DNA of 64,000 nt, taken from Eledone cirrhosa (Eukaryota). The notes beneath the pieces were generated by a model. It had not been told where the DNA came from. It saw only the letters and a list, made by a program, of their open reading frames with translations, and did not search any database. Positions 1-64,000 of the stretch are shown piece by piece. The DNA is taken from NCBI GenBank assembly GCA_964016885.1, contig CAXHJY010000901.1, positions 1 to 64,000 of the forward strand, in the 5' to 3' direction. The position numbers and the translations under genes were made by a program. Each line of letters begins with the position of its first letter. The stretch's first letter is position 1.

Positions 1-199
1 CTAAGCTATCCTAAGCTAAGCTAAGCTAAGCTAAGCTATACTAAGCTAAGCTAAGCTAAGCTATCCTAAGCTAAGCTAAGCTAAGCTATCCTAAGCTATC
101 CTAAGCTAAGCTATCCTAAGCTAAGCTATCCTAAGCTATCCTAAGCTAAGCTATCCTAAGCTATCCTAAGCTAAGCTATCCTAAGCTAAGCTATCCTAA

Positions 200-1900
200 G
201 CTAAGCTATCCTAAGCTAAGCTATCCTAAGCTATCCTAAGCTAAGCTATCCTAAGCTATCCTAAGCTAAGCTAAGCTAAGCTATCCTAAGCTAAGCTAAG
301 CTAAGCTATCCTAAGCTAAGCTAAGCTAAGCTTTCCTAAGCTATCCTAAGCTAAGCTATCCTAAGCTAAGCTATCCTAAGCTATCCTAAGCTAAGCTATC
401 CTAAGCTATCCTAAGCTAAGCTATCCTAAGCTATCCTAAGCTAAGCTATCCTAACCTAAGCTATCCTAAGCTATCCTAAGCTAAGCTATCCTAAGCTATC
501 CTAAGCTAAGCTATCCTAAGCTATCCTAAGCTAAGCTAAGCTAAGCTATCCTAAACTAAGCTAAGCTATCCTAAGCTAAGCTAAGCTATCCTAAGCTAAG
601 CTAAGCTAAGCTATCCTAAGCTAAGCTAAGCTAAGCTATCCTAAGCTAAGCTAAGCTAAGCTATCCTAAGCCAAGCTAAGCTAAGCTATCCTAAGCCAAG
701 CTAAGCTAAGCTATCCTAAGCTAAGCTAAGCTAAGCTATCCTAAGCTAAGCTAAGCTAAGCTATCCTAAGCTAAGCTAAGCTAAGCTATCCTAAGCTAAG
801 CTAAGCTAAGCTATCCTAAGCTAAGCTAAGCTAAGCTATCCTAAGCTAAGCTAAGCTAAGCTATCCTAAGCTAAGCTAAGCTAAGCTATCCTAAGCTAAG
901 CTAAGCTAAGCTATCCTAAGCTAAGCTAAGCTAAGCTATCCTAAGCTAAGCTATCCTAAGCTAAGCTAAGCTAAGCTATCCTAAGCTAAGCTAAGCTAAG
1001 CTATCCTAAGCTAAGCTAAGCTATCCTAAGCTAAGCTAAGCTAAGCTATCCTAAGCTAAGCTAAGCTAAGCTATCCTAAGCTAAGCTAAGCTAAGCTATC
1101 CTAAGCTAAGCTAAGCTAAGCTATCCTAAGCTAAGCTAAGCTAAACTATCCTAAGCTAAGCTAAGCTATCCTAAGCTAAGCTAAGCTAAGCTATCCTAAG
1201 CTAAGCTAAGCTAAGCTTTCCTAAGCTATCCTAAGCTAAGCTATCCTAAGCTAAGCTAAGCTAAGCTATTCTAAGCTAAGCTAAGCTATCCTAAGCTAAG
1301 CTAAGCTATCCTAAGCTAAGCTATCCTAAGCTATCCTAAGCTAAGCTATCCTAAGCTATCCTAAGCTAAGCTATCCTAAGCTAAGCTATCCTAAGCTAAG
1401 CTATTCTAAGCTAAGCTAAGCTAAGCTATCCTAAGCTAAGCTAAGCTAAGCTATCCTAAGCTAAGCTAAGCTAAGCTATCCTAAGCTAAGCTAAGCTAAG
1501 CTATCCTAAGCTAAGCTAAGCTAAGCTATCCTAAGCTAAGCTAAGCTAAGCTATCCTAAGCTAAGCTAAGCTATCCTAAGCTAAGCTAAGCTAAGCTATC
1601 CTAAGCTAAGCTAAGCTAAGCTATCCTAAGCTATCCTAAGCTAAGCTATCCTAAGCTAAGCTATCCTAAGCTATCCTAAGCTATCCCAAGCTAAGCTATC
1701 CTAAGCTAAGCTAAGCTAAGCTATCCTAAGCTAACCTATCCTAAGCTAAGCTATCCTAAGCTATCCTAAGCTAAGCTATCCTAATCTATCCTAAGCTAAG
1801 CTATCCTAAGCTATCCTAAGCTAAGCTATCCTAAGCTATCCTAAGCTAAGCTAAGCTAAGCTATCCTAAGCTATCCTAAGCTAAGCTATCCTAAGCTAAG
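200..1900 (+). repeat. More diverged homologue of ~11800-13500 (offset ~11.6 kb)
   Basis: CTTTC 331/11912, CTAAC 451/12032, CTAAA 551/12157, CCAAG pair 671,696/12257,12282, CTTTC 1216/12817, CTATT 1401/13022, CCAAG 1686/13297, CTAAT 1781/13392. Each copy also has private variants. Confidence 0.85.
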
Positions 1901-5199: not shown

Positions 5200-7140
5200 C
5201 TATCCTAAGCTAAGCTATCCTAAGCTAAGCTAAGCTATCCTAAGCTAAGCTAAGCTAAGCTATCCTAAGCTAAGCTAAGCTATCCTAAGCTAAGCTAAGC
5301 TAAGCTGTCCTAAGCTAAGCTAAGCTAAGCTATCCTAAGCTAAGCTAAGCTAAGCTATCCTAAGCTAAGCTAAGCTATCCTAAGCTAAGCTAAGCTAAGC
5401 TATCCTAAGCTAAGCTAAGCTAAGCTATCCTAAGCTAAGCTAAGCTAAGCTATCCTAAGCCAAGCTAAGCTATCCTAAGCTAAGCTAAGCTAAGCTGTCC
5501 TAAGCTAAGCTATCCTAAGCTATCCTAAGCTATCCTAAGCTAAGCTATCCTAAGCTATCCTAAGCTAAGCTATCCTAAGCTATCCTAAGCTAAGCTAAGC
5601 TAAGCTATCCTAAGCTAAGCTAAGCTAAGCTAAGCTAAGCTATCCTAAGCTAAGCTAAGCTAAGCTATCCTAAGCTATCCTAAGCTAAGCTATCCTAAGC
5701 TAAGCTATCCTAAGCTATCCTAAGCTAAGCTATCCTAAGCTATCCTAAGCTAAGCTATCCTAAGCTAAGCTATCCTAAGCTATCCTAAGCTAAGCTATCC
5801 TAAGCTATCCTAAGCTAAGCTATCCTAAGCTAAGCTAAGCTAAGCTAAGCTAACCTAAGCTAAGCTATCCTAAGCTAAGCTAAGCTAAGCTATCCTAAGC
5901 TAAGCTAAGCTAAGCTATCCTAAGCTATCCTAAGCTAAGCTATCCTAAGCTAAGCTATCCTAAGCTAAGCTATCCTAAGCTATCCTAAGCTAAGCTATCC
6001 TAAGCTAAGCTCTCCTAAGGTAAGCTATCCTAAGCTATCCTAAGCTAAGCTATCCTAAGCTATCCTAAGCTAAGCTAAGCTAAGCTATCCTAAGCTAAGC
6101 TAAGCTAAGCTAAGCTATCCTAAGCTAAGCTAAGCTAAGCTACCTAAGCTAAGCTAAGCTAAGCTATCCTAAGCTAAGCTATCCTAAGCTAAGCTAAGCT
6201 AAGCTATCCTAAGCTAAGCTAAGCTAAGCTATCCTAAGCTAAGCTAAGGTATCCTAAGCTAAGCTAAGCTAAGCTGTCCTAAGCTAAGCTAAGCTAAGCT
6301 ATCCTAAGCTAAGCTAAGCTAAGCTATCCTAAGCTAAGCTAAGCTATCCTAAGCTAAGCTAAGCTAAGCTATCCTAAGCTAAGCTAAGCTAAGCTATCCT
6401 AAGCTAAGCTAAGCTAAGCTATCCTAAGCCAAGCTAAGCTATCCTAAGCTAAGCTAAGCTAAGCTGTCCTAAGCTAAGCTATCCTAAGCTATCCTAAGCT
6501 ATCCTAAGCTAAGCTATCCTAAGCTATCCTAAGCTAAGCTATCCTAAGCTATCCTAAGCTAAGCTAAGCTAAGCTATCCTAAGCTAAGCTAAGCTAAGCT
6601 AAGCTAAGCTATCCTAAGCTAAGCTAAGCTAAGCTATCCTAAGCTATCCTAAGCTAAGCTATCCTAAGCTAAGCTATCCTAAGCTATCCTAAGCTAAGCT
6701 ATCCTAAGCTATCCTAAGCTAAGCTATCCTAAGCTAAGCCATCCTAAGCTATCCTAAGCTAAGCTATCCTAAGCTATCCTAAGCTAAGCTATCCTAAGCT
6801 AAGCTAAGCTAAGCTAAGCTAACCTAAGCTAAGCTATCCTAAGCTAAGCTAAGCTAAGCTATCCTAAGCTAAGCTAAGCTAAGCTATCCTAAGCTATCCT
6901 AAGCTAAGCTATCCTAAGCTAAGCTATCCTAAGCTAAGCTATCCTAAGCTATCCTAAGCTAAGCTATCCTAAGCTAAGCTCTCCTAAGGTAAGCTATCCT
7001 AAGCTATCCTAAGCTAAGCTATCCTAAGCTATCCTAAGCTAAGCTAAGCTAAGCTATCCTAAGCTAAGCTAAGCTAAGCTAAGCTATCCTAAGCTAAGCT
7101 AAGCTAAGCTACCTAAGCTAAGCTAAGCTAAGCTATCCTA
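5200..7140 (+). repeat. Tandem duplication of a ~970 bp unit (2 copies)
   Basis: Constant 969 bp offset: CTGTC 5305/6274, CCAAG 5460/6429, CTGTC 5495/6464, GTAAG 6020/6989, CTAC 6140/7109. Confidence 0.93.
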
Positions 7141-10099
7141 AGCTAAGCTAAGCTAAGCTATCCTAAGCTAAGCTAAGCTAAGCTCTCCTAAGCTAAGCTA
7201 AACTAAGCTATCCTAAGCTAAGCTAAGCTTTCCTAAGCTAAGCTAAGCTAAGCTATCCTAAGCTAAGCTAATCTATCCTAAGCTAAGCTAAGCTAAGCTA
7301 TCCTAAGCTAAGCTAAGCTAAGCTATCCTAAGCTAAGCTAAGCTAAGCTATCCTAAGCTAAGCTAAGCTAAGCTATCCTAAGCTAAGCTAAGCTATCCTA
7401 AGCTAAGCTAAGCTAAGCTATCCTAAGCTAAGCTAAGCTATCCTAAGCTAAGCTAAGCTAAGCTATCCTAAGCTATCCTAAGCTATCCTAAGCTAAGCTA
7501 AGCTAAGCTATCCTAAGCTAAGCTAAGCTAAGCTATCCTAAGCTAAGCTAAGCTAAGCTATCCTAAGCTAAGCTAAGCTATCCTAAGCTAAGCTAAGCTA
7601 AGCTATCCTAAGCTAAGCTAAGCTATCCTAAGCTAAGCTAAGCTAAGCTATCCTAAACTAAGCTAAGCTAAGCTATCCTAAGCTAAGCTAAGCTAAGCTA
7701 TCCTAAGCTAAGCTAAGCTAAGCTATCCTAAGCTAAGCTATCCTAAGCTATCCTAAGCTAAGCTAAGCTAAGCTAACCTAAGCTAAGCTATCCTAAGCTA
7801 AGCTATCCTAAGCTAAGCTATCCTAAGCTAAGCTAAGCTAAGCTATCCTAAGCTAAGCTAAGCTAAGCTATCCTAAGCTAAGCTAAGCTAAGCTATCCTA
7901 AGCTAAGCTAAGCTATCCTAAGCTAAGCTAAGCTAAGCTATCCTAAGCTAAGCTAAGCTAAGCTATCCTAAGCTAAGCTAAGCTAAGCTAACCTAAGCTA
8001 AGCTATCCTAAGCTAAGCTATCCTAAGCTAAGCTATCCTAAGCTAAGCTAAGCTAAGCTATCCTAAGCTAAGCTAAGCTAAGCTATCCTAAGCTAAGCTA
8101 AGCTAAGCTATCCTAAGCTAAGCTAAGCTATCCTAAGCTAAGCTAAGCTAAGCTATCCTAAGCTAAGCTAAGCTGAGCTATCCTAAGCTATCCTAAGCTA
8201 AGCTATCCTAAGCTAAGCTATCCTAAGCTATCCTAAGCTAAGCTATCCTAAGCTAAGCTAAGCTAAGCTATCCTAAGCTAAGCTATCCTAAGCTAAGCTA
8301 TCCTAAGCTATCCTAAGCTAAGCTATCCTAAGCTATCCTAAGCTAAGCTAAGCTAAGCTAAGCTAAGCTAAGCTATCCTAAGCTAAGCTAAGCTAAGCTA
8401 TCCTAAGCTAAGCTAAGCTAAGCTATCCTAAGCTATCCTAAGCTAAGCTATCCTAAGCTAAGCTATCCTAAGCTATCCTAAGCTAAGCTATCCTAAGCTA
8501 TCCTAAGCTAAGCTATCCTAAGCTAAGCTATCCTAAGCTAAGCTATCCTAAGCTATCCTAAGCTAAGCTATCCTAAGCTATCCTAAGCTAAGCTAAGCTA
8601 AGCTATCCTAAGCTAAGCTAAGCTAAGCTATCCTAAGCTAAGCTAAGCTAAGCTTTCCTAAGCTATCCTAAGCTAAGCTATCCTAAGCTAAGCTATCCTA
8701 AGCTATCCTAAGCTAAGCTATCCTAAGCTATCCTAAGCTAAGCTATCCTAAGCTATCCTAAGCTAAGCTATCCTAACCTAAGCTATCCTAAGCTATCCTA
8801 AGCTAAGCTATCCTAAGCTATCCTAAGCTAAGCTATCCTAAGCTATCCTAAGCTAAGCTAAGCTAAGCTATCCTAAGCTAAGCTAAGCTTTCCTAAGCTA
8901 AGCTAAGCTAAGCTATCCTAAGCTAAGCTAATCTATCCTAAGCTAAGCTAAGCTAAGCTATCCTAAGCTAAGCTAAGCTAAGCTATCCTAAGCTAAGCTA
9001 AGCTAAGCTATCCTAAGCTAAGCTAAGCTATCCTAAGCTAAGCTAAGCTAAGCTATCCTAAGCTAAGCTAAGCTAAGCTATCCTAAGCTAAGCTAAGCTA
9101 AGCTATCCTAAGCTAAGCTAAGCTATCCTAAGCTAAGCTAAGCTATCCTAAGCTAAGCTAAGCTAAGCTATCCTAAGCTAAGCTAAGCTAAGCTATCCTA
9201 AGCTAAGCTAAGCTAAGCTATCCTAAGCTATCCTAAGCTATCCTAAGCTAAGCTAAGCTAAGCTATCCTAAGCTAAGCTAAGCTAAGCTATCCTAAGCTA
9301 AGCTAAGCTAAGCTATCCTAAGCTAAGCTAAGCTATCCTAAGCTAAGCTAAGCTAAGCTATCCTAAGCTAAGCTAAGCTAAGCTATCCTAAGCTATCCTA
9401 AGCTAAGCTATCCTAAGCTAAGCTAAGCTAAGCTATCCTAAGCTAAGCTAAGCTAAGCTATCCTAAGCTAAGCTAAGCTAAGCTATCCTAAGCTAAGCTA
9501 AGCTAAGCTATCCTAAGCTAAGCTATCCTAAGCTATCCTAAGCTAAGCTAAGCTAAGCTAACCCAAGCTAAGCTATCCTAAGCTAAGCTATCCTAAGCTA
9601 AGCTATCCTAAGCTAAGCTAAGCTAAGCTATCCTAAGCTAAGCTAAGCTATCCTAAGCTAAGCTAAGCTAAGCTGTCCTAAGCTAAGCTAAGCTAAGCTA
9701 TCCTAAGCTAAGCTAAGCTAAGCTATCCTAAGCTAAGCTAAGCTATCCTAAGCTAAGCTAAGCTAAGCTATCCTAAGCTAAGCTAAGCTAAGCTATCCTA
9801 AGCTAAGCTAAGCTAAGCTATCCTAAGCTATCCTAAGCTATCCTAAGCTAAGCTATCCTAAGCTAAGCTATCCTAAGCTATCCTAAGCTAAGCTAAGCTA
9901 AGCAATCCTAAGCTAAGCTAAGCTAAGCTATCCTAAGCTAAGCTAAGCTAAGCTATCCTAAGCTAAGCTAAGCTAAGCTATCCTAAGCTATCCTAAGCTA
10001 AGCTATCCTAAGCTAAGCTATCCTAAGCTATCCTAAGCTAAGCTATCCTAAGCTATCCTAAGCTAAGCTATCCTAAGCTAAGCTATCCTAAGCTATCCT

Positions 10100-47800: not shown

Positions 47801-49850
47801 TAAGCTAAGCTATCCTAAGCTATCCTAAGCTAAGCTAAGCTAAGCTATCCTAAGCTAAGCTAAGCTAAGCTAAGCTATCCTAAGCTAAGCTAAGCTAAGC
47901 TATCCTAAGCTAAGCTAAGCTAAGCTATCCTAAGCTATCCTAAGCTAAGCTATCCTAAGCTAAGCTATCCTAAGCTATCCTAAGCTAAGCTATCCTAAGC
48001 TATCCTAAGCTAAGCTCTCCTAAGCTAAGCTATCCAAAGCTAAGCTATCCTAAGCTATCCTAAGCTAAGCTAAGCTAAGCTATCCTAAGCTAAGCTAAGC
48101 TAAGCTATCCTAAGCTAAGCTAAGCTAAGCTTTCCTAAGCTATCCTAAGCTAAGCTATTCTAAGCTAAGCGATCCTAAGCTATCCTAAGCTAAGCTATCC
48201 TAAGCTATCCTAAGCTAAGCTATCCTAAGCTAATCTATCCTAAGCTAAGCTATCCTAAGCTAACCTAAGCTAAGCTATCCTAAGCTATCCTAAGCTAAGC
48301 TATCCTAAGCTATCCTAGGCTAAGCTAAGCTAAGCTATCCTAAGCTAAGCTAAGCTAAGCTATCCTAAGCTAAGCTAAGCTAAGCTATCCTAAGCTAAGC
48401 TAAGCTAAGCTATCCTAAGCTATCCTAAGCTAAGCTATCCTAAGCTAAGCTATCCTAAGCTAAGCTATCCTAAGCTATCCTAAGCTAAGCTATCCTAAGC
48501 TATCCTAAGCTAAGCTATCCTAAGCTAAGCTATCCTAAGCTAAGCTATCCTAAGCTATCCTAAGCTAAGCTATCCTAAGCTATCCTAAGCTAAGCTATCC
48601 TAAGCTATCCTAAGCTAAGCTAAGCTAAGCTATCCTAAGCTAAGCTAAGCTAAGCTATCCTAAGCTAAGCTAAGCTAAGCTATCCTAAGCTAAGCTAAGC
48701 TAAGCTATCCTAAGCGATCCTAAGCTAAGCTATCCTAAGCTAAGCTATCCTAAGCTATCCTAAGCTAAGCAATCCTAAGCTATCCTAAGCTAAGCTATCC
48801 TAAGCTAAGCTATCCTAAGCTATCCTAAGCTAAGCTATCCTAAGCTATCCTAAGCTAAGCTATCCTAAGCTATCCTAAGCTAAGCTAAGCTAAGCTAACC
48901 TAAGCTAAGCTATCCTAAGCTAAGCTAAGCTAAGCTATCCTAAGCTAAGCTAAGCTAAGCTATCCTAAGCTATCCTAAGCTAAGCTATCCTAAGCTAAGC
49001 TATCCTAAGCTAAGCTATCCTAAGCTATCCTAAGCTAAGCTATCCTAAGCTAAGCTCTCCTAAGGTAAGCTATCCTAAGCTATCCTAAGCTAAGCTATCC
49101 TAAGCTATCCTAAGCTAAGCTAAGCTAAGCTATCCTAAGCTAAGCTAAGCTAAGCTACCTAAGCTAAGCTAAGCTAAGCTATCCTAAGCTAAGCTAAGCT
49201 AAGCTATCCTAAGCTAAGCTAAGCTCTCCTAAGCTAAGCTAAGCTAAGCTATCCTAAGCTAAGCTAAGCTTTCCTAAGCTAAGCTAAGCTAAGCTATCCT
49301 AAGCTAAGCTAATCTATCCTAAGCTAAGCTAAGCTAAGCTATCCTAAGCTAAGCTAAGCTAAGCTATCCTAAGCTAAGCTAAGCTAAGCTATCCTAAGCT
49401 AAGCTAAGCTAAGCTATCCTAAGCTAAGCTAAGCTAAGCTATCCTAAGCTAAGCTAAGCTAAGCTATCCTAAGCTAAGCTAAGCTAAGCTATCCTAAGCT
49501 AAGCTATCCTAAGCTAAGCTAAGCTATCCTAAGCTAAGCTAAGCTAAGCTATCCTAAGCTAAGCTAAGCTAAGCTATCCTAAGCTAAGCTAAGCTATCCT
49601 AAGCTAAGCTAAGCTAAGCTATCCTAAGCTAAGCTAAGCTAAGCTATCCTAAGCTAAGCTAAGCTAAGCTATCCTAAGCTATCCTAAGCTATCCTAAGCT
49701 AAGCTATCCTAAGCTATCCTAAGCTAAGCTAAGCTAAGCTATCCTAAGCTAAGCTAAGCTAAGCTATCCTAAGCTAAGCTAAGCTAAGCTATCCTAAGCT
49801 AAGCTAAGCTAAGCTATCCTAAGCTATCCTAAGCTAAGCTATCCTAAGCT
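40200..49850 (+). repeat. Nested local amplification: ~4.7-4.85 kb unit x2, each containing two ~2-2.8 kb subunits
   Basis: CTAGG at 41528, 43597, 46376, 48315; CTAC at 42003, 44437, 46851, 49155. Alternate markers are 4848 and 4718 bp apart for both marker types. Confidence 0.87.
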
Positions 49851-50819
49851 AAGCTATTCTAAGCTATCCTAAGCTAAGCTATCCTAAGCTATCCTAAGCT
49901 AAGCTATCCTAAGCTAAGCTATCCTAAGCTATCCTAAGCTAAGCTATCCTAAGCTAAGCTAAGCTAAGCTAACCTAAGCTAAGCTATCCTAAGCTAAGCT
50001 AAGCTAAGCTATCCTAAGCTAAGCTAAGCTAAGCTATCCTAAGCTATCCTAAGCTAAGCTATCCTAAGCTAAGCTATCCTAAGCTAAGCTATCCTAAGCT
50101 ATCCTAAGCTAAGCTATCCTAAGCTAAGCTAAGCTAAGCTATCCTAAGCTAAGCTATCCTAAGCTATCCTAAGCTAAGCTAAGCTAAGCTAAGCTAACCT
50201 AAGCTAAGCTATCCTAAGCTAAGCTATCCTAAGCTAAGCTATCCTAAGCTATCCTAAGCTAAGCTATCCTAAGCTATCCTAAGCTAACCTAAGCTAAGCT
50301 ATCCTAAGCTAAGCTAAGCTAAGCTATCCTAAGCTAAGCTAAGCTAAGCTATCCTAAGCTAAGCTAAGCTAAACTATCCTAAGCTAAGCTAAGCTAAGCT
50401 ATCCTAAGCTATCCTAAGCTAAGCTATCCTAAGCTAAGCTAAGCTAAGCTATCCTAAGCTAAGCTAAGCTAAGCTATCCTAAGCTAAGCTAAGCTAAGAT
50501 ATCCTAAGCTAAGCTATCCTAAGCTATCCTAAGCTAAGCTAAGCTAAGCTAACCTAAGCTAAGCTATCCTAAGCTAAGCTATCCTAAGCTAAGCTATCCT
50601 AAGCTAAGCTAAGCTAAGCTTTCCTAAGCTAAGCTAAGCTGAGCTATCCTAAGCTAAGCTAAGCTATCCTAAGCTAAGCTAAGCTAAGCTATCCTAAGCT
50701 AAGCTAAGCTAAGCTATCCTAAGCTAAGCTAAGCTAAGCTATCCTAAGCTAAGCTAAGCTATCCTAAGCTAAGCTAAGCTAAGCTATCCTAAGCTAAGCT
50801 AAGCTAAGCTATCCTAAGC

Positions 50820-53800
50820 TATCCTAAGCTAAGCTATCCTAAGCTAAGCTAAGCTAAGCTAAGCTAACCTAAGCTAAGCTATCCTAAGCTAAGCTAAGCT
50901 AAGCTATCCTAAGCTAAGCTAAGCTAAGCTATCCTAAGCTATCCTAAGCTAAGCTATCCTAAGCTAAGCTATCCTAAGCTAAGCTATCCTAAGCTATCCT
51001 AAGCTAAGCTATCCTAAGCTAAGCTCTCCTAAGGTAAGCTATCCTAAGCTATCCTAAGCTAAGCTATCCTAAGCTATCCTAAGCTAAGCTAAGCTAAGCT
51101 CTCCTAAGCTAAGCTAAGCTAAGCTATCCTAAGCTAAGCTAAGCTAAGCTAAGCTATCCTAAGCTAAGCTAAGCTAAGCTACCTAAGCTAAGCTAAGCTA
51201 TCCTAAGCTAAGCTAAGCTAAGCTATCCTAAGCTAAGCTAAGCTAAGCTCTCCTAAGCTAAGCTAAGCTAAGCTATCCTAAGCTAAGCTAAGCTTTCCTA
51301 AGCTAAGCTAAGCTAAGCTATCCTAAGCTAAGCTAATCTATCCTAAGCTAAGCTAAGCTAAGCTATCCTAAGCTAAGCTAAGCTAAGCTATCCTAAGCTA
51401 AGCTAAGCTAAGCTATCCTAAGCTAAGCTAAGCTAAGCTATCCTAAGCTAAGCTAAGCTAAGCTATCCTAAGCTAAGCTAAGCTATCCTAAGCTAAGCTA
51501 AGCTAAGCTATCCTAAGCTAAGCTAAGCTATCCTAAGCTAAGCTAAGCTAAGCTATCCTAAGCTATCCTAAGCTATCCTAAGCTAAGCTAAGCTAAGCTA
51601 TCCTAAGCTAAGCTAAGCTAAGCTATCCTAAGCTAAGCTAAGCTAAGCTATCCTAAGCTAAGCTAAGCTATCCTAAGCTAAGCTAAGCTAAGCTATCCTA
51701 AGCTAAGCTAAGCTAAGCAATCCTAAGCTATCCTAAGCTAAGCTATCCTAAGCTAAGCTAAGCTAAGCTATCCTAAGCTAAGCTAAGCTAAGCTATCCTA
51801 AGCTAAGCTAAGCTAAGTTATCCTAAGCTAAGCTATCCTAAGCTATCCTAAGCTAAGCTAAGCTAAGCTAACCTAAGCTAAGCTATCCTAAGCTAAGCTA
51901 TCCTAAGCTAAGCTATCCTAAGCTAAGCTAAGCTAAGCTATCCTAAGCTAAGCTAAGCTAAGCTATCCTAAGCTAAGCTAAGCTATCCTAAGCTAAGCTA
52001 AGCTAAGCTATCCTAAGCTAAGCTAAGCTAAGCTATCCTAAGCTAAGCTAAGCTATCCTAAGCTAAGCTAAGCTAAGCTATCCTAAGCTAAGCTAAGCTA
52101 ATCTATCCTAAGCTATCCTAAGCTAAGCTATCCTAACCTAAGATATCCTAAGCTATCCTAAGCTAAGCTATCCTAAGCTAAGCTAAGCTAAGCTATCCTA
52201 AGCTAAGCTATCCTAAGCTAAGCTATCCTAAGCTATCCTAAGCTAAGCTATCCTAAGCTATCCTAAGCTAAGCTATCCTAAGCTATCCTAAGCTAAGCTA
52301 TCCTAAGCTATCCTAAGCTAAGCTAAGCTATCCTAAGCTAAGCTAAGCTAAGCTAAGCTATCCTAAGCTAAGCTAAGCTATCCTAAGCTAAGCTAAGCTA
52401 AGCTATCCTAAGCTATCCTAAGCTAAGCTATCCTAAGCTAAGCTATCCTAAGCTATCCTAAGCTAAGCTATCCTAAGCTATCCTAAGCTAAGCTATCCTA
52501 AGCTAAGCTATCCTAAGCTAAGCTATCCTAAGCTATCCTAAGCTAAGCTATCCTAAGCTATCCTAAGCTAAGCTAAGCTAAGCTATCCTAAGCTAAGCTA
52601 AGCTAAGCTATCCTAAGCTAAGCTAAGCTAAGCTTTCCTAAGCTATCCTAAGCTAAGCTATCCTAAGCTAAGCTATCCTAAGCTATCCTAAGCTAAGCTA
52701 TCCTAAGCTATCCTAAGCTAAGCTATCCTAAGCTATCCTAAGCTAAACTATCCTAACCTAAGCTATCCTAAGCTATCCTAAGCTAAGCTATCCTAAGCTA
52801 TCCTAAGCTAAGCTATCCTAAGCTATCCTAAGCTAAGCTATCCTAAGCTATCCTAAGCTAAGCTAAGCTAAGCTATCCTAAACTAAGCTAAGCTATCCTA
52901 AGCTAAGCTAAGCTAAGCTATCCTAAGCTATCCTAAGCTAAGCTATCCTAAGCTAAGCTAAGCTAAGCTATCCTAAGCCAAGCTAAGCTAAGCTATCCTA
53001 AGCCAAGCTAAGCTAAGCTATCCTAAGCTAAGCTAAGCTATCCTAAGCTAAGCTAAGCTAAGCTATCCTAAGCTAAGCTATGCTAAGCTATCCTAAGCTA
53101 AGCTAAGCTAAGCTATCCTAAGCTAAGCTAAGCTAAGCTATCCTAAGCTAAGCTAAGCTAAGCTATCCTAAGCTAAGCTAAGCTAAGCTATCCTAAGCTA
53201 AGCTAAGCTAAGCTATCCTAAGCTAAGCTATGCTAAGCTATCCTAAGCTAAGCTAAGCTAAGCTATCCTAAGCTAAGCTATCCTAAGCTAAGCTAAGCTA
53301 AGCTATCCTAAGCTAAGCTAAGCTAAGCTATCCTAAGCTAAGCTATCCTAAGCTAAGCTAAGCTAAGCTATCCTAAGCTAAGCCAAGCTAAGCTATCCTA
53401 AGCTAAGCTAAGCTAAGCTATCCTAAACTAAGCTAAGCTAAGCTATCCTAAGCTAAGCTAAGCTAAGCTATCCTAAGCTAAGCTAAGCTATCCTAAGCTA
53501 AGCTAAGCTAAGCTATCCTAAGCTAAGCTAAGCTAAGCTTTCCTAAGCTATCCTAAGCTAAGCTATCCTAAGCTAAGCTAAGCTAAGCTATCCTAAGCTA
53601 AGCTAAGCTATCCTAAGCTAAGCTAAGCTAAGCTATCCTAAGCTAAGCTATCCTAAGCTATCCTAAGCTAAGCTATCCTAAGCTATCCTAAGCTAAGCTA
53701 TCCTAAGCTAAGCTATCCTAAGCTAAGCTATCCTAAGCTAAGCTATTCTAAGCTAAGCTAAGCTAAGCTATCCTAAGCTAAGCTAAGCTAAGCTATCCTA

Positions 53801-56800
53801 AGCTAAGCTAAGCTAAGCTATCCTAAGCTAAGCTAAGCTAAGCAATCCTAAGCTAAGCTAAGCTAAGCTATCCTAAGCTAAGCTAAGCTAAGCTATCCTA
53901 AGCTAAGCTAAGCTATCCTAAGCTAAGCTAAGCTAAGCTATCCTAAGCTAAGCTAAGCTAAGCTATCCTAAGCTATCCTAAGCTAAGCTATCCTAAGCTA
54001 AGCTATCCTAAGCTATCCCAAGCTAAGCTATCCTAAGCTAAGCTAAGCTAAGCTATCCTAAGCTAAGCTATCCTAAGCTAAGCTATCCTAAGCTATCCTA
54101 AGCTAAGCTATCCTAATCTATCCTAAGCTAAGCTATCCTAAGCTATCCTAAGCTAAGCTATCCTAAGCTATCCTAAGCTAAGCTAAGCTAAGCTATCCTA
54201 AGCTATCCTAAGCTAAGCTATCCTAAGCTAAACTATCCTAAGCTATCCTAAGCTAAGCTATCCTAAGCTATCCTAAGCTAAGCTATCCTAAGCTATCCTA
54301 AGCTAAGCTAAGCTAAGCTATCCTAAGCTAAGCTAAGCTAAGCTATCCTAAGCTAAGCTAAGCTAAGCTATCCTAAGCTAAGTTAAGCTAAGCTATCCTA
54401 AGCTATCCTAAGCTAAGCTATCCTAAGCTAAGCTATCCTAAGCTATCCTAAGCTAAGCTATCCTAAGCTATCCTAAGCTAAGCTATCCTAAGCTAAGCTA
54501 TCCTAAGCTAAGCTATCCTAAGCTATCCTAAGCTAAGCTATCCTAAGCTATCCTAAGCTAAGCTATCCTAAGCTATCCTAAGCTAAGCTAAGCTAAGCTA
54601 TCCTAAGCTAAGCTAAGCTAAGCTATCCTAAGCTAAGCTAAGCTAAGCTATCCTAAGCTAAGCTAAGCTAAGCTATCCTAAGCTATCCTAAGCTAAGCTA
54701 TCCTAAGCTAAGCTATCCTAAGCTAAGCTATCCTAAGCTATCCTAAGCTAAGCTATCCTAAGCTAAGCTCTCCTAAGGTAAGCTATCCTAAGCTATCCTA
54801 AGCTAAGCTATCCTAAGCTATCCTAAGCTAAGCTAAGCTAAGCTATCCTAAGCTAAGCTAAGCTAAGCTATCCTAAGCTAAGCTAAGCTAAGCTATCCTA
54901 AGTTAAGCTAAGCTAAGCTATCCTAAGCTAAGTTAAGCTAAGCTATCCTAAGCTAAGCTAAGCTAAGCTATCCTAAGCTAAGCTAAGCTAAGCTCTCCTA
55001 AGCTAAGCTATCCTAAGCTATCCTAAGCTAAGCTAAGCTATCCTAAGCTAAGCTAAGCTAAGCTATCCTAAGCTAAGCTAAGCTATCCTAAGCTAAGCTA
55101 AGCGATCCTAAGCTAAGCTAAGCTAAGCTATCCTAAGCTAAGCTAAGCTAAGCTATCCTAAGCTAAGCTAAGCTAAGCTATCCTAAGCTAAGCTAAGCTA
55201 AGCTATCCTAAGCTAAGCTAAGCTAAGCTATCCTAAGCTAAGCTAAGCTAAGCTATCCTAAGCAAAGCTAAGCTAAGCTATCCTAAGCTAAGCTATCCTA
55301 AGCTAAGCTATCCTAAGCTATCCTAAGCTAAGCTATCCTAAGCTAAGCTAAGCTAAGCTAACCTAAGCTAAGCTATCCTAAGCTAAGCTAAGCTAAGCTA
55401 TCCTAAGCTAAGCTAAGCTAAGCTATCCTAAGCTATCCTAAGCTAAGCTATCCTAAGCTAAGCTATCCTAAGCTAAGCTATCCTAAGCTATCCTAAGCTA
55501 AGCTATCCTAAGCTAAGCTCTCCTAAGGTAAGCTATCCTAAGCTATCCTAAGCTAAGCTATCCTAAGCTATCCTAAGCTAAGCTAAGCTAAGCTATCCTA
55601 AGCTAAGCTAAGCTAAGCTATCCTAAGCTAAGCTAAGCTAAGCTAAGCTATCCTAAGCTAAGCTAAGCTAAGCTACCTAAGCTAAGCTAAGCTATCCTAA
55701 GCTAAGCTAAGCTAAGCTATCCTAAGCTAAGCTAAGCTCTCCTAAGCTAAGCTAAGCTAAGCTATCCTAAGCTAAGCTAAGCTTTCCTAAGCTAAGCTAA
55801 GCTAAGCTATCCTAAGCTAAGCTAATCTATCCTAAGCTAAGCTAAGCTAAGCTATCCTAAGCTAAGCTAAGCTAAGCTATCCTAAGCTAAGCTAAGCTAA
55901 GCTATCCTAAGCAAAGCTAAGCTATCCTAAGCTAAGCTAAGCTAAGCTATCCTAAGCTAAGCTAAGCTATCCTAAGCTAAGCTAAGCTAAGCTATCCTAA
56001 GCTAAGCTAAGCTATCCTAAGCTAAGCTAAGCTAAGCTATCCTAAGCTAAGCTAAGCTAAGCTATCCTAAGCTAAGCTAAGCTAAGCTATCCTAAGCTAT
56101 CCTAAGCTATCCTAAGCTAACCTAAGCTAAGCTATCCTAAGCTAAGCTAAGCTAAGCTATCCTAAGCTAAGCTAAGCTAAGCTATCCTAAGCAAAGCTAA
56201 GCTATCCTAAGCTAAGCTAAGCTAAGCTATCCTAAGCTAAGCTAAGCTATCCTAAGCTAAGCTAAGCTAAGCTATCCTAAGCTAAGCTAAGCTATCCTAA
56301 GCTAAGCTAAGCTAAGCTATCCTAAGCTAAGCTAAGCTAAGCTATCCTAAGCTAAGCTAAGCTAAGCTATCCTAAGCCATCCTAAGCTATCCTAAGCTAA
56401 CCTAAGCTAAGCTATCCTAAGCTAAGCTAAGCTGAGCTATCCTAAGCTAAGCTAAGCTATCCTAAGCTAAGCTAAGCTAAGCTATCCTAAGCTAAGCTAA
56501 GCTAAGCTATCCTAAGCTAAGCTAAGCTAAGCTATCCTAAGCTAAGCTAAGCTATCCTAAGCTAAGCTAAGCTAAGCTATCCTAAGCTAAGCTAAGCTAT
56601 CCTAAGCTATCCTAAGCTAAGCTATCCTAAGCTAAGCTATCCTAAGCTATCCTAAGCTAAGCTATCCTAAGCTAAGCTAAGCTAAGCTATCCTAAGCTAA
56701 GCTATCCTAAGCTAAGCTATCCTAAGCTATCCTAAGCTAAGCTATCCTAAGCTATCCTAAGCTAAGCTATCCTAAGCTATCCTAAGCTAAGCTATCCTAA

Positions 56801-59800
56801 GCTATCCTAAGCTAAGCTAAGCTAAGCTATCCTAAGCTAAGCTAAGCTAAGCTAAGCTATCCTAAGCTAAGCTAAGCTAAGCTATCCTAAGCTAAGCTAA
56901 GCTAAGCTATCCTAAGCTATCCTAAGCTAAGCTATCCTAAGCTAAGCTATCCTAAGCTATCCTAAGCTAAGCTATCCTAAGCTATCCTAAGCTAAGCTCT
57001 CCTAAGCTAAGCTATCCAAAGCTAAGCTATCCTAAGCTATCCTAAGCTAAGCTATCCTAAGCTATCCTAAGCTAAGCTAAGCTAAGCTATCCTAAGCTAA
57101 GCTAAGCTAAGCTATCCTAAGCTAAGCTAAGCTAAGCTTTCCTAAGCTATCCTAAGCTAAGCTATTCTAAGCTAAGCTATCCTAAGCTATCCTAAGCTAA
57201 GCTATCCTAAGCTATCCTAAGCTAAGCTATCCTAAGCTAATCTATCCTAAGCTAAGCTATCCTAAGCTAACCTAAGCTAAGCTATCCTAAGCTATCCTAA
57301 GCTAAGCTATCCTAAGCTATCCTAGGCTAAGCTAAGCTAAGCTATCCTAAGCTAAGCTAAGCTAAGCTATCCTAAGCTAAGCTAAGCTAAGCTATCCTAA
57401 GCTAAGCTAAGCTAAGCTATCCTAAGCTATCCTAAGCTAAGCTATCCTAAGCTAAGCTATCCTAAGCTAAGCTATCCTAAGCTATCCTAAGCTAAGCTAT
57501 CCTAAGCTATCCTAAGCTAAGCTATCCTAAGCTAAGCTATCCTAAGCTAAGCTATCCTAAGCTATCCTAAGCTAAGCTATCCTAAGCTATCCTAAGCTAA
57601 GCTATCCTAAGCTATCCTAAGCTAAGCTAAGCTAAGCTATCCTAAGCTAAGCTAAGCTAAGCTATCCTAAGCTAAGCTAAGCTAAGCTATCCTAAGCTAA
57701 GCTAAGCTAAGCTATCCTAAGCGATCCTAAGCTAAGCTATCCTAAGCTAAGCTATCCTAAGCTATCCTAAGCTAAGCAATCCTAAGCTATCCTAAGCTAA
57801 GCTATCCTAAGCTAAGCTATCCTAAGCTATCCTAAGCTAAGCTATCCTAAGCTATCCTAAGCTAAGCTATCCTAAGCTATCCTAAGCTAAGCTAAGCTAA
57901 GCTAACCTAAGCTAAGCTATCCTAAGCTAAGCTAAGCTAAGCTATCCTAAGCTAAGCTAAGCTAAGCTATCCTAAGCTATCCTAAGCTAAGCTATCCTAA
58001 GCTAAGCTATCCTAAGCTAAGCTATCCTAAGCTATCCTAAGCTAAGCTATCCTAAGCTAAGCTCTCCTAAGGTAAGCTATCCTAAGCTATCCTAAGCTAA
58101 GCTATCCTAAGCTATCCTAAGCTAAGCTAAGCTAAGCTATCCTAAGCTAAGCTAAGCTAAGCTACCTAAGCTAAGCTAAGCTAAGCTATCCTAAGCTAAG
58201 CTAAGCTAAGCTATCCTAAGCTAAGCTAAGCTCTCCTAAGCTAAGCTAAGCTAAGCTATCCTAAGCTAAGCTAAGCTTTCCTAAGCTAAGCTAAGCTAAG
58301 CTATCCTAAGCTAAGCTAATCTATCCTAAGCTAAGCTAAGCTAAGCTATCCTAAGCTAAGCTAAGCTAAGCTATCCTAAGCTAAGCTAAGCTAAGCTATC
58401 CTAAGCTAAGCTAAGCTAAGCTATCCTAAGCTAAGCTAAGCTAAGCTATCCTAAGCTAAGCTAAGCTAAGCTATCCTAAGCTAAGCTAAGCTAAGCTATC
58501 CTAAGCTAAGCTATCCTAAGCTAAGCTAAGCTATCCTAAGCTAAGCTAAGCTAAGCTATCCTAAGCTAAGCTAAGCTAAGCTATCCTAAGCTAAGCTAAG
58601 CTATCCTAAGCTAAGCTAAGCTAAGCTATCCTAAGCTAAGCTAAGCTAAGCTATCCTAAGCTAAGCTAAGCTAAGCTATCCTAAGCTATCCTAAGCTATC
58701 CTAAGCTAAGCTATCCTAAGCTATCCTAAGCTAAGCTAAGCTAAGCTATCCTAAGCTAAGCTAAGCTAAGCTATCCTAAGCTAAGCTAAGCTAAGCTATC
58801 CTAAGCTAAGCTAAGCTAAGCTATCCTAAGCTATCCTAAGCTAAGCTATCCTAAGCTAAGCTATTCTAAGCTATCCTAAGCTAAGCTATCCTAAGCTATC
58901 CTAAGCTAAGCTATCCTAAGCTAAGCTATCCTAAGCTATCCTAAGCTAAGCTATCCTAAGCTAAGCTAAGCTAAGCTAACCTAAGCTAAGCTATCCTAAG
59001 CTAAGCTAAGCTAAGCTATCCTAAGCTAAGCTAAGCTAAGCTATCCTAAGCTATCCTAAGCTAAGCTATCCTAAGCTAAGCTATCCTAAGCTAAGCTATC
59101 CTAAGCTATCCTAAGCTAAGCTATCCTAAGCTAAGCTAAGCTAAGCTATCCTAAGCTAAGCTATCCTAAGCTATCCTAAGCTAAGCTAAGCTAAGCTAAC
59201 CTAAGCTAAGCTATCCTAAGCTAAGCTATCCTAAGCTAAGCTATCCTAAGCTATCCTAAGCTAAGCTATCCTAAGCTATCCTAAGCTAACCTAAGCTAAG
59301 CTATCCTAAGCTAAGCTAAGCTAAGCTATCCTAAGCTAAGCTAAGCTAAGCTATCCTAAGCTAAGCTAAGCTAAACTATCCTAAGCTAAGCTAAGCTAAG
59401 CTATCATAAGCTATCCTAAGCTAAGCTATCCTAAGCTAAGCTAAGCTAAGCTATCCTAAGCTAAGCTAAGCTAAGCTATCCTAAGCTAAGCTAAGCTAAG
59501 CTATCCTAAGCTAAGCTATCCTAAGCTATCCTAAGCTAAGCTAAGCTAAGCTAACCTAAGCTAAGCTATCCTAAGCTAAGCTATCCTAAGCTAAGCTATC
59601 CTAAGCTAAGCTAAGCTAAGCTTTCCTAAGCTAAGCTAAGCTGAGCTATCCTAAGCTAAGCTAAGCTATCCTAAGCTAAGCTAAGCTAAGCTATCCTAAG
59701 CTAAGCTAAGCTAAGCTATCCTAAGCTAAGCTAAGCTAAGCTATCCTAAGCTAAGCTAAGCTATCCTAAGCTAAGCTAAGCTAAGCTATCCTAAGCTAAG

Positions 59801-62800
59801 CTAAGCTAAGCTATCCTAAGCTATCCTAAGCTAAGCTATCCTAAGCTAAGCTATCCTAAGCTATCCTAAGCTAAGCTATCCTAAGCTAAGCTAAGCTAAG
59901 CTATCCTAAGCTAAGCTATCCTAAGCTAAGCTATCCTAAGCTATCCTAAGCTAAGCTATCCTAAGCTATCCTAAGCTAAGCTATCCTAAGCTATCCTAAG
60001 CTAAGCTATCCTAAGCTATCCTAAGCTAAGCTAAGCTAAGCTATCCTAAGCTAAGCTAAGCTAAGCTAAGCTATCCTAAGCTAAGCTAAGCTAAGCTAAG
60101 CTATCCTAAGCTAAGCTAAGCTAAGCTATCCTAAGCTATCCTAAGCTAAGCTATCCTAAGCTAAGCTATCCTAAGCTATCCTAAGCTAAGCTATCCTAAG
60201 CTATCCTAAGCTAAGCTCTCCTAAGCTAAGCTATCCAAAGCTAAGCTATCCTAAGCTATCCTAAGCTAAGCTATCCTAAGCTATCCTAAGCTAAGCTAAG
60301 CTAAGCTATCCTAAGCTAAGCTAAGCTAAGCTATCCTAAGCTAAGCTAAGCTAAGCTTTCCTAAGCTATCCTAAGCTAAGCTATTCTAAGCTAAGCTATC
60401 CTAAGCTATCCTAAGCTAAGCTATCCTAAGCTATCCTAAGCTAAGCTATCCTAAGCTATCCTAAGCTAAGCTATCCTAACCTAAGCTATCCTAAGCTATC
60501 CTAAGCTAAGCTATCCTAAGCTATCCTAAGCTAAGCTATCCTAAGCTATCCTAAGCTAAGCTAAGCTAAGCTATCCTAAACTAAGCTAAGCTATCCTAAG
60601 CTAAGCTAAGCTAAGCTATCCTAAGCTAAGCTAAGCTAAGCTAAGCTAAGCTATCCTAAGCTAAGCTAAGCTAAGCTAAGCTATCCTAAGCTAAGCTAAG
60701 CTAAGCTAAGCTATCCTAAGCTAAGCTAAGCTAAGCTAAGCTAAGCTAAGCTATCCTAAGCTAAGCTAAGCTAAGCTATCCTAAGCCAAGCTAAGCTAAG
60801 CTATCCTAAGCCAAGCTAAGCTAAGCTATCCTAAGCTAAGCTAAGCTAAGCTATCCTAAGCTAAGCTAAGCTAAGCTATCCTAAGCTAAGCTAAGCTAAG
60901 CTATCCTAAGCTAAGCTAAGCTAAGCTATCCTAAGCTAAGCTAAGCTAAGCTATACTAAGCTAAGCTAAGCTAAGCTATCCTAAGCTAAGCTAAGCTAAG
61001 CTATCCTAAGCTAAGCTAAGCTAAGCTATCCTAAGCTAAGCTAAGCTATCCTAAGCTAAGCTATCCTAAGCTAAGCTAAGCTAAGCTATCCTAAGCTAAG
61101 CTAAGCTAAGCTATCCTAAGCTAAGCTAAGCTATCCTAAGCTAAGCTAAGCTAAGCTATCCTAAGCTAAGCTAAGCTATCCTAAGCTAAGCTAAGCTAAG
61201 CTATCCTAAGCTAAGCTAAGCTAAGCTATCCTAAGCTAAGCTAAGCTAAACTATCCTAAGCTAAGCTAAGCTATCCTAAGCTAAGCTAAGCTAAGCTAAG
61301 CTAAGCTAAGCTAAGCTAAGCTTTCCTAAGCTATCCTAAGCTAAGCTATCCTAAGCTAAGCTAAGCTAAGCTATCCTAAGCTAAGCTAAGCTATCCTAAG
61401 CTAATCTAAGCTAAGCTATCCTAAGCTAAGCTATCCTAAGCTATCCTAAGCTAAGCTATCCTAAGCTATCCTAAGCTAAGCTATCCTAAGCTAAGCTATT
61501 CTAAGCTAAGCTAAGCTAAGCTATCCTAAGCTAAGCTAAGCTAAGCTATCCTAAGCTAAGCTAAGCTAAGCTATCCTAAGCTAAGCTAAGCTAAGCTATC
61601 CTAAGCTAAGCTAAGCTAAGCTATCCTAAGCTAAGCTAAGCTAAGCTATCCTAAGCTAAGTTAAGCTATCCTAAGCTAAGCTAAGCTAAGCTAAGCTATC
61701 CTAAGCTATCCTAAGCTATCCTAAGCTAAGCTATCCTAAGCTAAGCTATCCTAAGCTAAGCTATCCTAAGCTATCCTAAGCTAAGCTATCCTAAGCTATC
61801 CTAAGCTAACCTAAGCTAAGCTATCCTAAGCTAAGCTAAGCTAAGCTATCCTAAGCTAAGCTAAGCTAAGCTATCCTAAGCTAAGCTAAGCTAAACTATC
61901 CTAAGCTAAGCTAAGCTAAGCTATCCTAAGCTATCCTAAGCTAAGCTATCCTAAGCTAAGCTAAGCTAAGCTATCCTAAGCTAAGCTAAGCTAAGCTATC
62001 CTAAGCTAAGCTAAGCTAAGCTATCCTAAGCTAAGCTATCCTAAGCTATCCTAAGCTAAGCTAAGCTAAGCTAACCTAAGCTAAGCTATCCTAAGCTAAG
62101 CTATCCTAAGCTAAGCTATCCTAAGCTAAGCTAAGCTAAGCTTTCCTAAGCTAAGCTAAGCTGAGCTATCCTAAGCTAAGCTAAGCTATCCTAAGCTAAG
62201 CTAAGCTAAGCTATCCTAAGCTAAGCTAAGCTAAGCTATCCTAAGCTAAGCTAAGCTATCCTAAGCTAAGCTAAGCTAAGCTATCCTAAGCTAAGCTAAG
62301 CTAAGCTATCCTAAGCTATCCTAAGCTAAGCTATCCTAAGCTAAGCTATCCTAAGCTATCCTAAGCTAAGCTATCCTAAGCTAAGCTAAGCTAAGCTATC
62401 CTAAGCTAAGCTATCCTAAGCTAAGCTATCCTAAGCTATCCTAAGCTAAGCTATCCTAAGCTATCCTAAGCTAAGCTATCCTAAGCTATCCTAAGCTAAG
62501 CTATCCTAAGCTATCCTAAGCTAAGCTAAGCTATCCTAAGCTAAGCTAAGCTAAGCTAAGCTATCCTAAGCTAAGCTAAGCTAAGCTAAGCTATCCTAAG
62601 CTAAGCTAAGCTAAGCTATCCTAAGCTATCCTAAGCTAAGCTATCCTAAGCTAAGCTATCCTAAGCTATCCTAAGCTAAGCTATCCTAAGCTATCCTAAG
62701 CTAAGCTCTCCTAAGCTAAGCTATCCAAAGCTAAGCTATCCTAAGCTATCCTAAGCTAAGCTATCCTAAGCTATCCTAAGCTAAGCTAAGCTAAGCTATC

Positions 62801-64000
62801 CTAAGCTAAGCTAAGCTAAGCTATCCTAAGCTAAGCTAAGCTAAGCTTTCCTAAGCTATCCTAAGCTAAGCTATTCTAAGCTAAGCTATCCTAAGCTATC
62901 CTAAGCTAAGCTATCCTAAGCTATCCTAAGCTAAGCTATCCTAAGCTATCCTAAGCTAAGCTATCCTAACCTAAGCTATCCTAAGCTATCCTAAGCTAAG
63001 CTATCCTAAGCTATCCTAAGCTAAGCTATCCTAAGCTATCCTAAGCTAAGCTAAGCTAAGCTATCCTAAACTAAGCTAAGCTATCCTAAGCTAAGCTAAG
63101 CTAAGCTATCCTAAGCTAAGCTAAGCTAAGCTAAGCTAAGCTATCCTAAGCTAAGCTAAGCTAAGCTATCCTAAGCTAAGCTAAGCTAAGCTAAGCTATC
63201 CTAAGCTAAGCTAAGCTAAGCTAAGCTAAGCTAAGCTATCCTAAGCTAAGCTAAGCTAAGCTATCCTAAGCCAAGCTAAGCTAAGCTATCCTAAGCCAAG
63301 CTAAGCTAAGCTATCCTAAGCTAAGCTAAGCTAAGCTATCCTAAGCTAAGCTAAGCTAAGCTATCCTAAGCTAAGCTAAGCTAAGCTATCCTAAGCTAAG
63401 CTAAGCTAAGCTATCCTAAGCTAAGCTAAGCTAAGCTATACTAAGCTAAGCTAAGCTAAGCTATCCTAAGCTAAGCTAAGCTAAGCTATCCTAAGCTAAG
63501 CTAAGCTAAGCTATCCTAAGCTAAGCTAAGCTATCCTAAGCTAAGCTATCCTAAGCTAAGCTAAGCTAAGCTATCCTAAGCTACGCTAAGCTAAGCTATC
63601 CTAAGCTAAGCTAAGCTATCCTAAGCTAAGCTAAGCTAAGCTATCCTAAGCTAAGCTAAGCTATCCTAAGCTAAGCTAAGCTAAGCTATCCTAAGCTAAG
63701 CTAAGCTAAGCTATCCTAAGCTAAGCTAAGCTAAACTATCCTAAGCTAAGCTAAGCTATCCTAAGCTAAGCTAAGCTAAGCTAAGCTAAGCTAAGCTAAG
63801 CTAAGCTTTCCTAAGCTATCCTAAGCTAAGCTATCCTAAGCTAAGCTAAGCTAAGCTATCCTAAGCTAAGCTAAGCTATCCTAAGCTAAGCTAAGCTAAG
63901 CTATCCTAAGCTAAGCTATCCTAAGCTATCCTAAGCTAAGCTATCCTAAGCTATCCTAAGCTAAGCTATCCTAAGCTAAGCTATTCTAAGCTAAGCTAAG
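50820..64000 (+). repeat. ~13 kb block, copy 2 (direct repeat of ~10100-23270), truncated by the window end
   Basis: Same ordered variants as 10100-23270, including the internal ~2.5 kb tandem duplication. Confidence 0.92.
59230..64000 (+). repeat. Tandem duplication of a ~2.5 kb unit (homologue of 18480-23500)
   Basis: CTGAG 59641/62161, CAAAG 60236/62726, CCAAG pair 60786/63271. Confidence 0.9.

What the first reader, a model, noticed from the sequence alone, without database searches (positions are those of the whole stretch)
1..64000. A simple pentamer satellite with nested higher-order structure spanning 5 bp to ~41 kb
Seen: rare variant pentamers act as barcodes and reveal direct duplications at offsets of 25 bp, ~970 bp, ~2.5 kb, ~4.8 kb, ~11.6 kb, ~15.7 kb, ~24.9 kb, ~31.7 kb (CTAC 17411/49155, CTATT 18110/49854) and ~40.7 kb. 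The segment ~10.1-11.8 kb occurs four times (ATATC at 11427, 27079, 36274, 52143). Small duplications (970 bp, 2.5 kb) lie inside the large ones in both copies, so they came first. Established: layered higher-order repeats typify centromeric satellites such as primate alpha satellite and Arabidopsis CEN178, and human HSat2/3 pentamer arrays carry kb-scale periodicity. Inference: this array is turning over by unequal exchange or break-induced replication with out-of-register template switches, giving a patchwork rather than one fixed HOR. It is a candidate centromeric or pericentromeric satellite with a monomer I do not recognise.
Basis: partly seen in the sequence, partly recalled or inferred. 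Interest (0 to 1): 0.72.

Follow-up and report, generated by a model that had tools for sequence, protein, structure and literature searches.

The report
Satellite built by nested tandem duplications
The window is one unbroken repeat made of two five-letter words whose rare spelling variants show copies within copies up to 41,000 bases apart, likely left by about seven ordinary head-to-tail duplications of the kind satellite DNA is known to make; a centromere role is untested.

Summary
Observation confirmed. All 64 kb parse into 12,804 units (CTAAG 9,097; CTATC 3,189; 518 rare), one strand, dominant period 25 bp. The longest exact internal match is 3,320 bp, against at most 385 bp in Markov nulls. 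From 23,765 on, the window is six re-runs of its first 23.8 kb, and every junction jumps backwards in register with 8-48 bp homology. Seven nested tandem duplications (15.7, 24.9, 9.0, 2.1, 4.9, 2.5, 0.97 kb) explain them; 15.9, 31.7 and 40.7 kb are sums, and 11.6 kb is weak. Copies are about 99.9% identical and differ by unit-multiple indels (13 deletions, 3 insertions) and three conversion-like tracts. This matches the mutation spectrum measured in Arabidopsis centromeres and resembles the nested repeats of human HSat2/3. It is not a fixed higher-order repeat. The motif was not found in five paper searches. Centromere role untested; unchecked scan notes call the genome octopus-like, name other centromere candidates, and report a similar young duplication in a pentamer satellite elsewhere in it. 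Verdict: new member of a known kind.

The parts
1..64000 (+). Uninterrupted satellite of two pentamers, A=CTAAG and B=CTATC, mostly as 25-bp words AAAAB and ABAAB plus 15- and 20-bp derivatives; one orientation; no inversion or foreign insertion
   Evidence: B recurs at 25 bp in 63.5% of cases; BB never adjacent; no reverse-strand pentamer on +; longest stop-free frame 29 aa
1..23765 (+). Master segment R, from which the rest of the window is copied; holds older, more eroded duplication layers (about 2.5-6.8 kb offsets)
5285..7223 (+). 0.97-kb tandem duplication, first inherited pair
18450..23449 (+). 2.5-kb tandem duplication, first inherited pair; junction homology 10 bp
23765..27542 (+). 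Copy of R 8048-11886; visible start of the second copy of the oldest large duplication (15.7 kb, junction J1)
27513..41832 (+). Copy of R 2661-16875; start of the second copy of the 24.9-kb duplication (junction J2, 33 bp homology)
30057..32014 (+). 0.97-kb duplication, second inherited pair (identical over 985 bp; junction homology 8 bp)
39144..39290 (+). Conversion-like tract: 165 bp matching the CTCTC-CTAAG-GTAAG block found elsewhere replaces the local sequence in one of three copies
41788..45105 (+). Copy of R 14737-18079; second copy of the 2.1-kb duplication (junction J3, 48 bp homology)
45101..49823 (+). Second copy of the 4.9-kb duplication (junction J4, 8 bp homology); carries a second copy of junction J3 at 46636-46680
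50804..64000 (+). Copy of R 10088-23269; second copy of the 9.0-kb duplication (junction J6, 48 bp homology) running on to the window end
59201..64000 (+). 2.5-kb duplication, second inherited pair (cut by the window end)

Best explanation
This is a non-coding satellite of two pentamers arranged mainly as 25-bp words, and its long-range pattern was likely produced by about seven successive, nested, in-register tandem duplications of 1-25 kb. Shown: the unit grammar; the six backward junctions; 8-48 bp junction homology; that undoing the duplications youngest-first gives adjacent copies at each step and shrinks 64 kb to 19.8 kb; 99.9% identity between copies. Inferred: order 15.7 kb first, then 2.5 and 0.97 kb, then 24.9, 9.0, 2.1 and 4.9 kb. 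Each event likely arose when a broken or stalled DNA end re-annealed out of register on the sister chromatid or homologue, which the 5-bp phase allows anywhere in the array. Between events, slippage trims 5-155 bp and short gene conversions move variants between nearby copies, so the array grows by large duplications and erodes by small deletions. It is most likely heterochromatic bulk satellite with no fixed higher-order period.
For: Six of 6 young junctions jump backwards in master coordinates; a six-piece model matches 7,954 of 8,050 units after 23,765. Ordered undoing gives adjacent copies at 0.90-0.99 unit identity in 8 of 8 steps. Nesting predictions hold: copy 50864 is identical to 10148 over 1,285 bp while copy 25825 differs from both by 3 indels, so J6 is a duplication and not a deletion; CGATC is shared by exactly the four copies made by J3 and J4 and is absent from the other two; junction J3 occurs twice with the same breakpoints. 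Every indel between recent copies is a multiple of 5 bp. Polarised small indels: 13 deletions of 16 (hand-counted; p=0.021); AAAB (282) outnumbers AAAAAB (45) beside 1,268 AAAAB. Conversion-like tracts at 39144, 56097 and 32510. Arabidopsis mutation-accumulation lines show register-preserving kb tandem duplications and short non-allelic conversions, and simulations there give long-distance similarity without long-range recombination (10.1101/2025.06.02.657473, sections 7 and 11).
Against: The second copies of the 15.7-kb and 24.9-kb events are only partly visible (3.8 kb, and 17.1 of 21.4 collapsed kb), so their full tandem nature is inferred. Only two synapomorphies support internal branch order; the three copies of R 10.1-16.9 kb are otherwise star-like. 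Large deletions outside duplicated sequence would be invisible, so 'growth by duplication' is biased by ascertainment. No reads were laid and no genome is held, so assembly order is not directly verified. The repair pathway is not identifiable from sequence.
Confidence: 0.8

Rival explanations
1. It is the functional centromeric satellite: the same duplication process, but on CENP-A chromatin, favoured by the hairpin-forming CTAAG unit.
For: Young, homogeneous, insertion-free array with heterogeneous higher-order structure, which the centromere atlas reports as common and enriched in array centres (10.64898/2026.09.17.752431, passages); 32 of 263 candidate families there are under 100 bp. 158 of 158 100-nt windows fold better than mononucleotide shuffles.
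Against: No chromatin or position data. Folding is no better than dinucleotide shuffles (z -0.97 to +2.67). Atlas monomers centre on 100-200 bp. Human HSat2/3 show nested kb repeats outside the kinetochore. Unchecked scan notes name AT-rich and 196-bp repeats as centromere candidates in this genome.
Confidence: 0.2
2. The blocks were copied by dispersed, long-range template switches or one multi-switch replication event rather than by separate tandem duplications.
For: Copies have similar divergence and a near-star tree (1-2 internal against 22-23 terminal events); short non-tandem templated tracts do occur.
Against: All 6 young junctions go backwards and nest perfectly; the burst test is not significant (P 0.16-0.31); CGATC and one 2.5-kb indel arose between events.
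Confidence: 0.12
3. The duplications are assembly artefacts (haplotypes or paralogous reads chained in tandem).
For: Copies are 99.9% identical, periods exceed usual accurate-read length (own knowledge), and private substitutions are enriched for C>A/G>T (8 of 21), a damage-like signature.
Against: Junction homology is only 8-48 bp, too short for overlap mis-joins; six copies of R 15.3-16.9 kb are all distinguishable over their full spans; J3 recurs with the same breakpoints; no random 1-bp indels in 64 kb, the 20 CTAC units tracing to 2 origins.
Confidence: 0.05
4. It is telomerase-made or telomere-derived DNA (the minus strand holds TTAGG 3,437 times).
For: The minus strand reads as TTAGC and TTAGG-ATAGC words.
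Against: TTAGG is tandem only 15 times; kb duplications with inherited variants are not what telomerase synthesis gives; a one-letter likeness between pentamers is common by chance; no paper lists the motif as telomeric. If the host is a mollusc, its telomere is TTAGGG (recalled).
Confidence: 0.03

Closest known systems
Human HSat2/HSat3 nested tandem repeats (10.1101/2021.07.12.452052; passages read)
   Same: Pentamer-derived satellite with variant pentamers, kb-scale nested periodicities that vary locally along an array.
   Different: Different pentamers (CTAAG/CTATC against CATTC), almost no CpG, 25-bp word structure, only 4% rare units, and no single kb period repeated many times.
Arabidopsis CEN178 arrays, mutation-accumulation spectrum (10.1101/2025.06.02.657473; abstract and sections 7, 11 read)
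   Same: Register-preserving tandem duplications, insertions larger than deletions, short non-allelic conversion, long-distance similarity arising from local events.
   Different: Monomer 5/25 bp rather than 178 bp; duplications reach 9-25 kb against at most 31 units there; frequent 5-50 bp slippage; no evidence of CENH3.
Heterogeneous-HOR satellites in the 325-genome centromere atlas (10.64898/2026.09.17.752431; abstract and passages read)
   Same: Abundant higher-order repeats with heterogeneous spacing.
   Different: Atlas families are centromere candidates mostly of 100-200 bp; 'octop' and 'cephalopod' do not occur in its main text; its family table is a closed supplement.
Primate alpha-satellite regimented HORs (atlas passage)
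   Same: Multi-monomer blocks at high identity.
   Different: No fixed n-mer repeated head to tail here; each large period occurs once.

Membership tests
Simple-sequence satellite with nested tandem repeats (HSat2/3-like class) | Long uninterrupted array derived from a short simple repeat | tested here: met
   64 kb, 12,804 units, 96% are two pentamers
Simple-sequence satellite with nested tandem repeats (HSat2/3-like class) | kb-scale periodicities revealed by rare k-mers, varying along the array | tested here: met
   interval spectrum peaks at 0.9, 2.0-2.5, 9, 15.8 and 24.8 kb
HSat2/HSat3 proper | CATTC-derived sequence | tested here: not met
   units are CTAAG and CTATC
Regimented higher-order repeat (alpha-satellite type) | One multi-monomer unit repeated many times at constant period | tested here: not met
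   each large period occurs once; the top bin holds only 4-8% of the whole-window interval spectrum
Centromeric satellite | CENP-A/CENH3 occupancy | not testable with these tools
   no chromatin data
Centromeric satellite | One major array per chromosome at the constriction | not testable with these tools
   no genome held
Centromeric satellite | Abundant higher-order structure and high local identity | tested here: met
   99.9% identical multi-kb copies; necessary-looking but not specific
Telomeric repeat (TTAGG type) | Tandem runs of the telomere motif at a chromosome end | tested here: not met
   CCTAACCTAA occurs 15 times in 64 kb; position not testable

The most novel reading that the evidence does not exclude
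An undescribed 25-bp, hairpin-prone satellite shared by several related species (probably cephalopods) that forms centromeric or pericentromeric chromatin, and whose pentamer barcodes record a size-dependent mutation rule: slippage under 200 bp shrinks the array while 1-25 kb duplications grow it. That would give a natural readout of what sets satellite length.
Probability: 0.2. Interest if true: 0.55.

Novelty: new member of a known kind. Interest (0 to 1): 0.3.

Why it matters
The process is known, so the value is as a clean worked example. Because the alphabet is two words plus rare barcodes, the duplication history, breakpoints and small-scale mutation spectrum can be read almost exactly from one haplotype. 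It shows that offsets of 30-40 kb need no long-range recombination, and it gives a base-level prediction for the sequence just past the window. If CENP-A binds it, it would be a centromere marker for a group that the centromere atlas's main text does not mention.

Tried and rejected
Own genome search: none held, so array size, flanks and chromosomal position are unknown. Automatic tandem collapse in arbitrary order stalled at 57.4 kb; the ordered version worked. Burst of duplications: not significant. Breakpoints prefer hairpin-rich or B-poor tracts: no, mean B density 0.246 against 0.249. Junction homology longer than chance: unclear; median 33 bp for five junctions against null median 13 (P 0.015 by median, 0.08 by sum), and the sixth is 10 bp. 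Special folding: better than mononucleotide shuffles, not better than dinucleotide shuffles; (CTAAG)n ranks 20 of 102 pentamer classes. Absence of BB as selection: rejected by reasoning, since making BB has only 3 bp of slippage homology. Fibonacci-like order in the 10/15-bp tracts: rejected, '11' occurs 43 times and '222' 92 times. Coding: longest stop-free frame 29 aa. Motif scans: 45-nt pattern 0 hits in metagenome and prokaryote contigs; 22-nt pattern 0 in prokaryote and viral contigs, 1 in metagenomes, a short unrelated low-complexity patch. Motif paper searches showed no satellite with this motif among the listed papers (25 of 215, 40 of 101, 25 of 64, 36 of 36, 8 of 9); two fish papers mention AAGCT only as an example or a table entry (passages); an Octopus vulgaris repeat paper has no motif or centromere mention in its main text. 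Scan look-ups by sequence and relatives returned only an unrelated phage note.

Full report
What is there. The 64,000 bases parse without gaps into 12,804 units: CTAAG (A) 9,097, CTATC (B) 3,189, and 518 units of 26 rare types. The only non-5-bp unit is CTAC (20 copies). The reverse-strand pentamers never occur on the + strand, so there is no inversion, and no frame stays open beyond 29 codons. The strongest short period is 25 bp (autocorrelation 0.913). A-runs between Bs are mostly 4, 2 and 1 (1,268, 1,005, 747), 63.5% of Bs have another B 25 bp on, and BB is never adjacent. The working monomer is therefore a 25-mer in two spellings, AAAAB and ABAAB.

Checking the observation. The cited barcodes are at the stated places with identical flanks. 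The longest exact internal match is 3,320 bp, with 57 matches of 500 bp or more; six Markov-shuffled arrays gave at most 385 bp and none. Eight of the nine cited offsets are supported by 10-108 shared variant pairs against 3-7 at three control offsets; 11.6 kb has 8. A heuristic clustering traces the 518 rare units to about 92 origins, so most are inherited copies.

The history. Chaining exact matches shows that everything after 23,765 re-runs the first 23.8 kb (R): R8048-11886, R2661-16875, R14737-18079, R15296-16875, R14737-19099, R10088-23269. A model joined from these six pieces matches 7,954 of 8,050 units. All six junctions jump backwards, as tandem duplication predicts; a dispersed insertion would give a jump away and a jump back. 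Two junctions are the same one copied. Undoing events youngest-first (4.9, 2.1, 9.0, 0.97 twice, 2.5 twice, 24.9 kb) gives adjacent copies at each of 8 steps and leaves 19.8 kb. With the 15.7-kb event that makes seven duplications. The 15.9-, 31.7- and 40.7-kb offsets are sums of these, less small deletions.

Tests of the history. The last large junction could be a 9.0-kb duplication or a 6.7-kb deletion. A deletion would make copy 50864 sister to copy 25825. Instead it is identical to copy 10148 over 1,285 bp and differs from 25825 by three indels. The variant CGATC marks exactly the four copies produced by the 2.1- and 4.9-kb events. One indel is shared by both descendants of each 2.5-kb copy, so that event predates the 24.9-kb one. 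Against this, these are the only two synapomorphies, and the second copies of the two largest events are cut short.

Breakpoints and small mutations. Junction homology is 33, 48, 8, 48, 8 and 10 bp, against a median of 13 bp for random in-register pairs; no junction shifts the 5-bp phase. The 24.9-kb copies differ by 7 one-base substitutions over 14,135 matched bases and the 40.7-kb copies by 11 over 13,070. Where three or more copies allow polarity, 13 of 16 simple indels are deletions of 5-155 bp (hand count; p=0.021). Left out of that count: indels of the outgroup copy, indels seen in only two copies, and the conversion tracts. Three tracts look templated from elsewhere in the array (39144, 56097, 32510). 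Timing looks clustered but a burst is not significant.

Mechanism. Shown: register-preserving duplications with short homology, unit-multiple indels, short replaced tracts. Inferred: out-of-register annealing during homology-directed repair or unequal exchange, plus replication slippage. CTAAG is a quasi-palindrome, and the strand folds into AGCT stems with A-A mismatches that B units weaken (mean -20.7 kcal/mol with 2 Bs per 100 nt, -9.4 with 8). Hairpins may help slippage, but folding is not better than dinucleotide shuffles and breakpoints show no preference for B-poor DNA, so this stays a possibility.

Artefact. Unlikely. Homology of 8-48 bp cannot drive an overlap mis-join, six copies of one segment are distinguishable, one junction recurs exactly, and there are no stray 1-bp indels. 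Private substitutions are enriched for C>A/G>T (8 of 21, against 8 of 64 multi-copy origins hand-counted; p=0.02), so some singletons may be errors.

Occurrence. Three runs of one sample of coded organism A hold 0.64-0.70 of 149 sampled words; this may be the source and is not independent. Organisms B, C and D hold 0.36, 0.23 and 0.21, while only 127 of 1,401 distinct 31-mers in that stretch are pure A/B. This suggests, unlaid, that similar arrays exist in other species. Unchecked scan notes describe the genome as octopus-like, report a young 31-kb duplication in a pentamer satellite on another piece, and favour AT-rich or 196-bp repeats as centromere candidates. I could not check these, nor whether that pentamer is the same.

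Comparison. It works like Arabidopsis CEN178 arrays, where mutation-accumulation lines gave register-preserving tandem duplications averaging 1,870 bp, smaller deletions and short conversions, and where simulations produced long-distance similarity from local events (10.1101/2025.06.02.657473; abstract and sections 7, 11). In architecture it is closest to HSat2/3 nested tandem repeats (10.1101/2021.07.12.452052; passages) but is not a member by sequence. It fails the test for a regimented HOR. A 325-genome atlas finds higher-order repeats prevalent across satellite families (10.64898/2026.09.17.752431; abstract and passages); its family table is a supplement I could not see and may hold this motif. 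Five motif searches showed no description among the listed papers.

Verdict. A real, apparently undescribed satellite sequence evolving by a known process, with an unusually legible record. Centromere role about 0.2. Interest 0.3.

Noticed in passing
window 20730, 21380, 22660, 22825, 25655, 50499, 59406, 61401: Private substitutions are enriched for C>A/G>T (8 of 21), and 7 of the 8 fall in copies of R 18.6-22.9 kb; damage or consensus error, or a local mutation bias.
   Followed up: partly
window 3331-3805, 6819-7268, 10148-10617, 14637-15101, 17151-17565: An older barcode block (CTAAC, CTCTC-CTAAG-GTAAG, CTAC, CTCTC, CTTTC, CTAAT) recurs five times in the master segment at 2.5-4.5 kb spacing, a trace of an earlier layer of about 3-3.5 kb.
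   Followed up: partly
window 27364: A second, independent CTAC 1-bp deletion, unrelated in context to the other 19.
   Followed up: yes
window 32510-32520: A conversion-like CAATC with a new CTCTC two units away in one copy only, possibly error-prone repair synthesis.
   Followed up: no
window 1-64000: Only 13 CG dinucleotides in 64 kb, so the array is nearly free of CpG methylation targets.
   Followed up: no
window 1-64000: CTAAC, the A/B hybrid unit, is the commonest variant (81 copies, about 10 origins), perhaps because it can arise from either parent or at recombination joints.
   Followed up: no
L001:237-345: Short low-complexity patch in a metagenome contig that begins with the same motif and grades into a purine-rich pentamer-like run; probably unrelated.
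   Followed up: no
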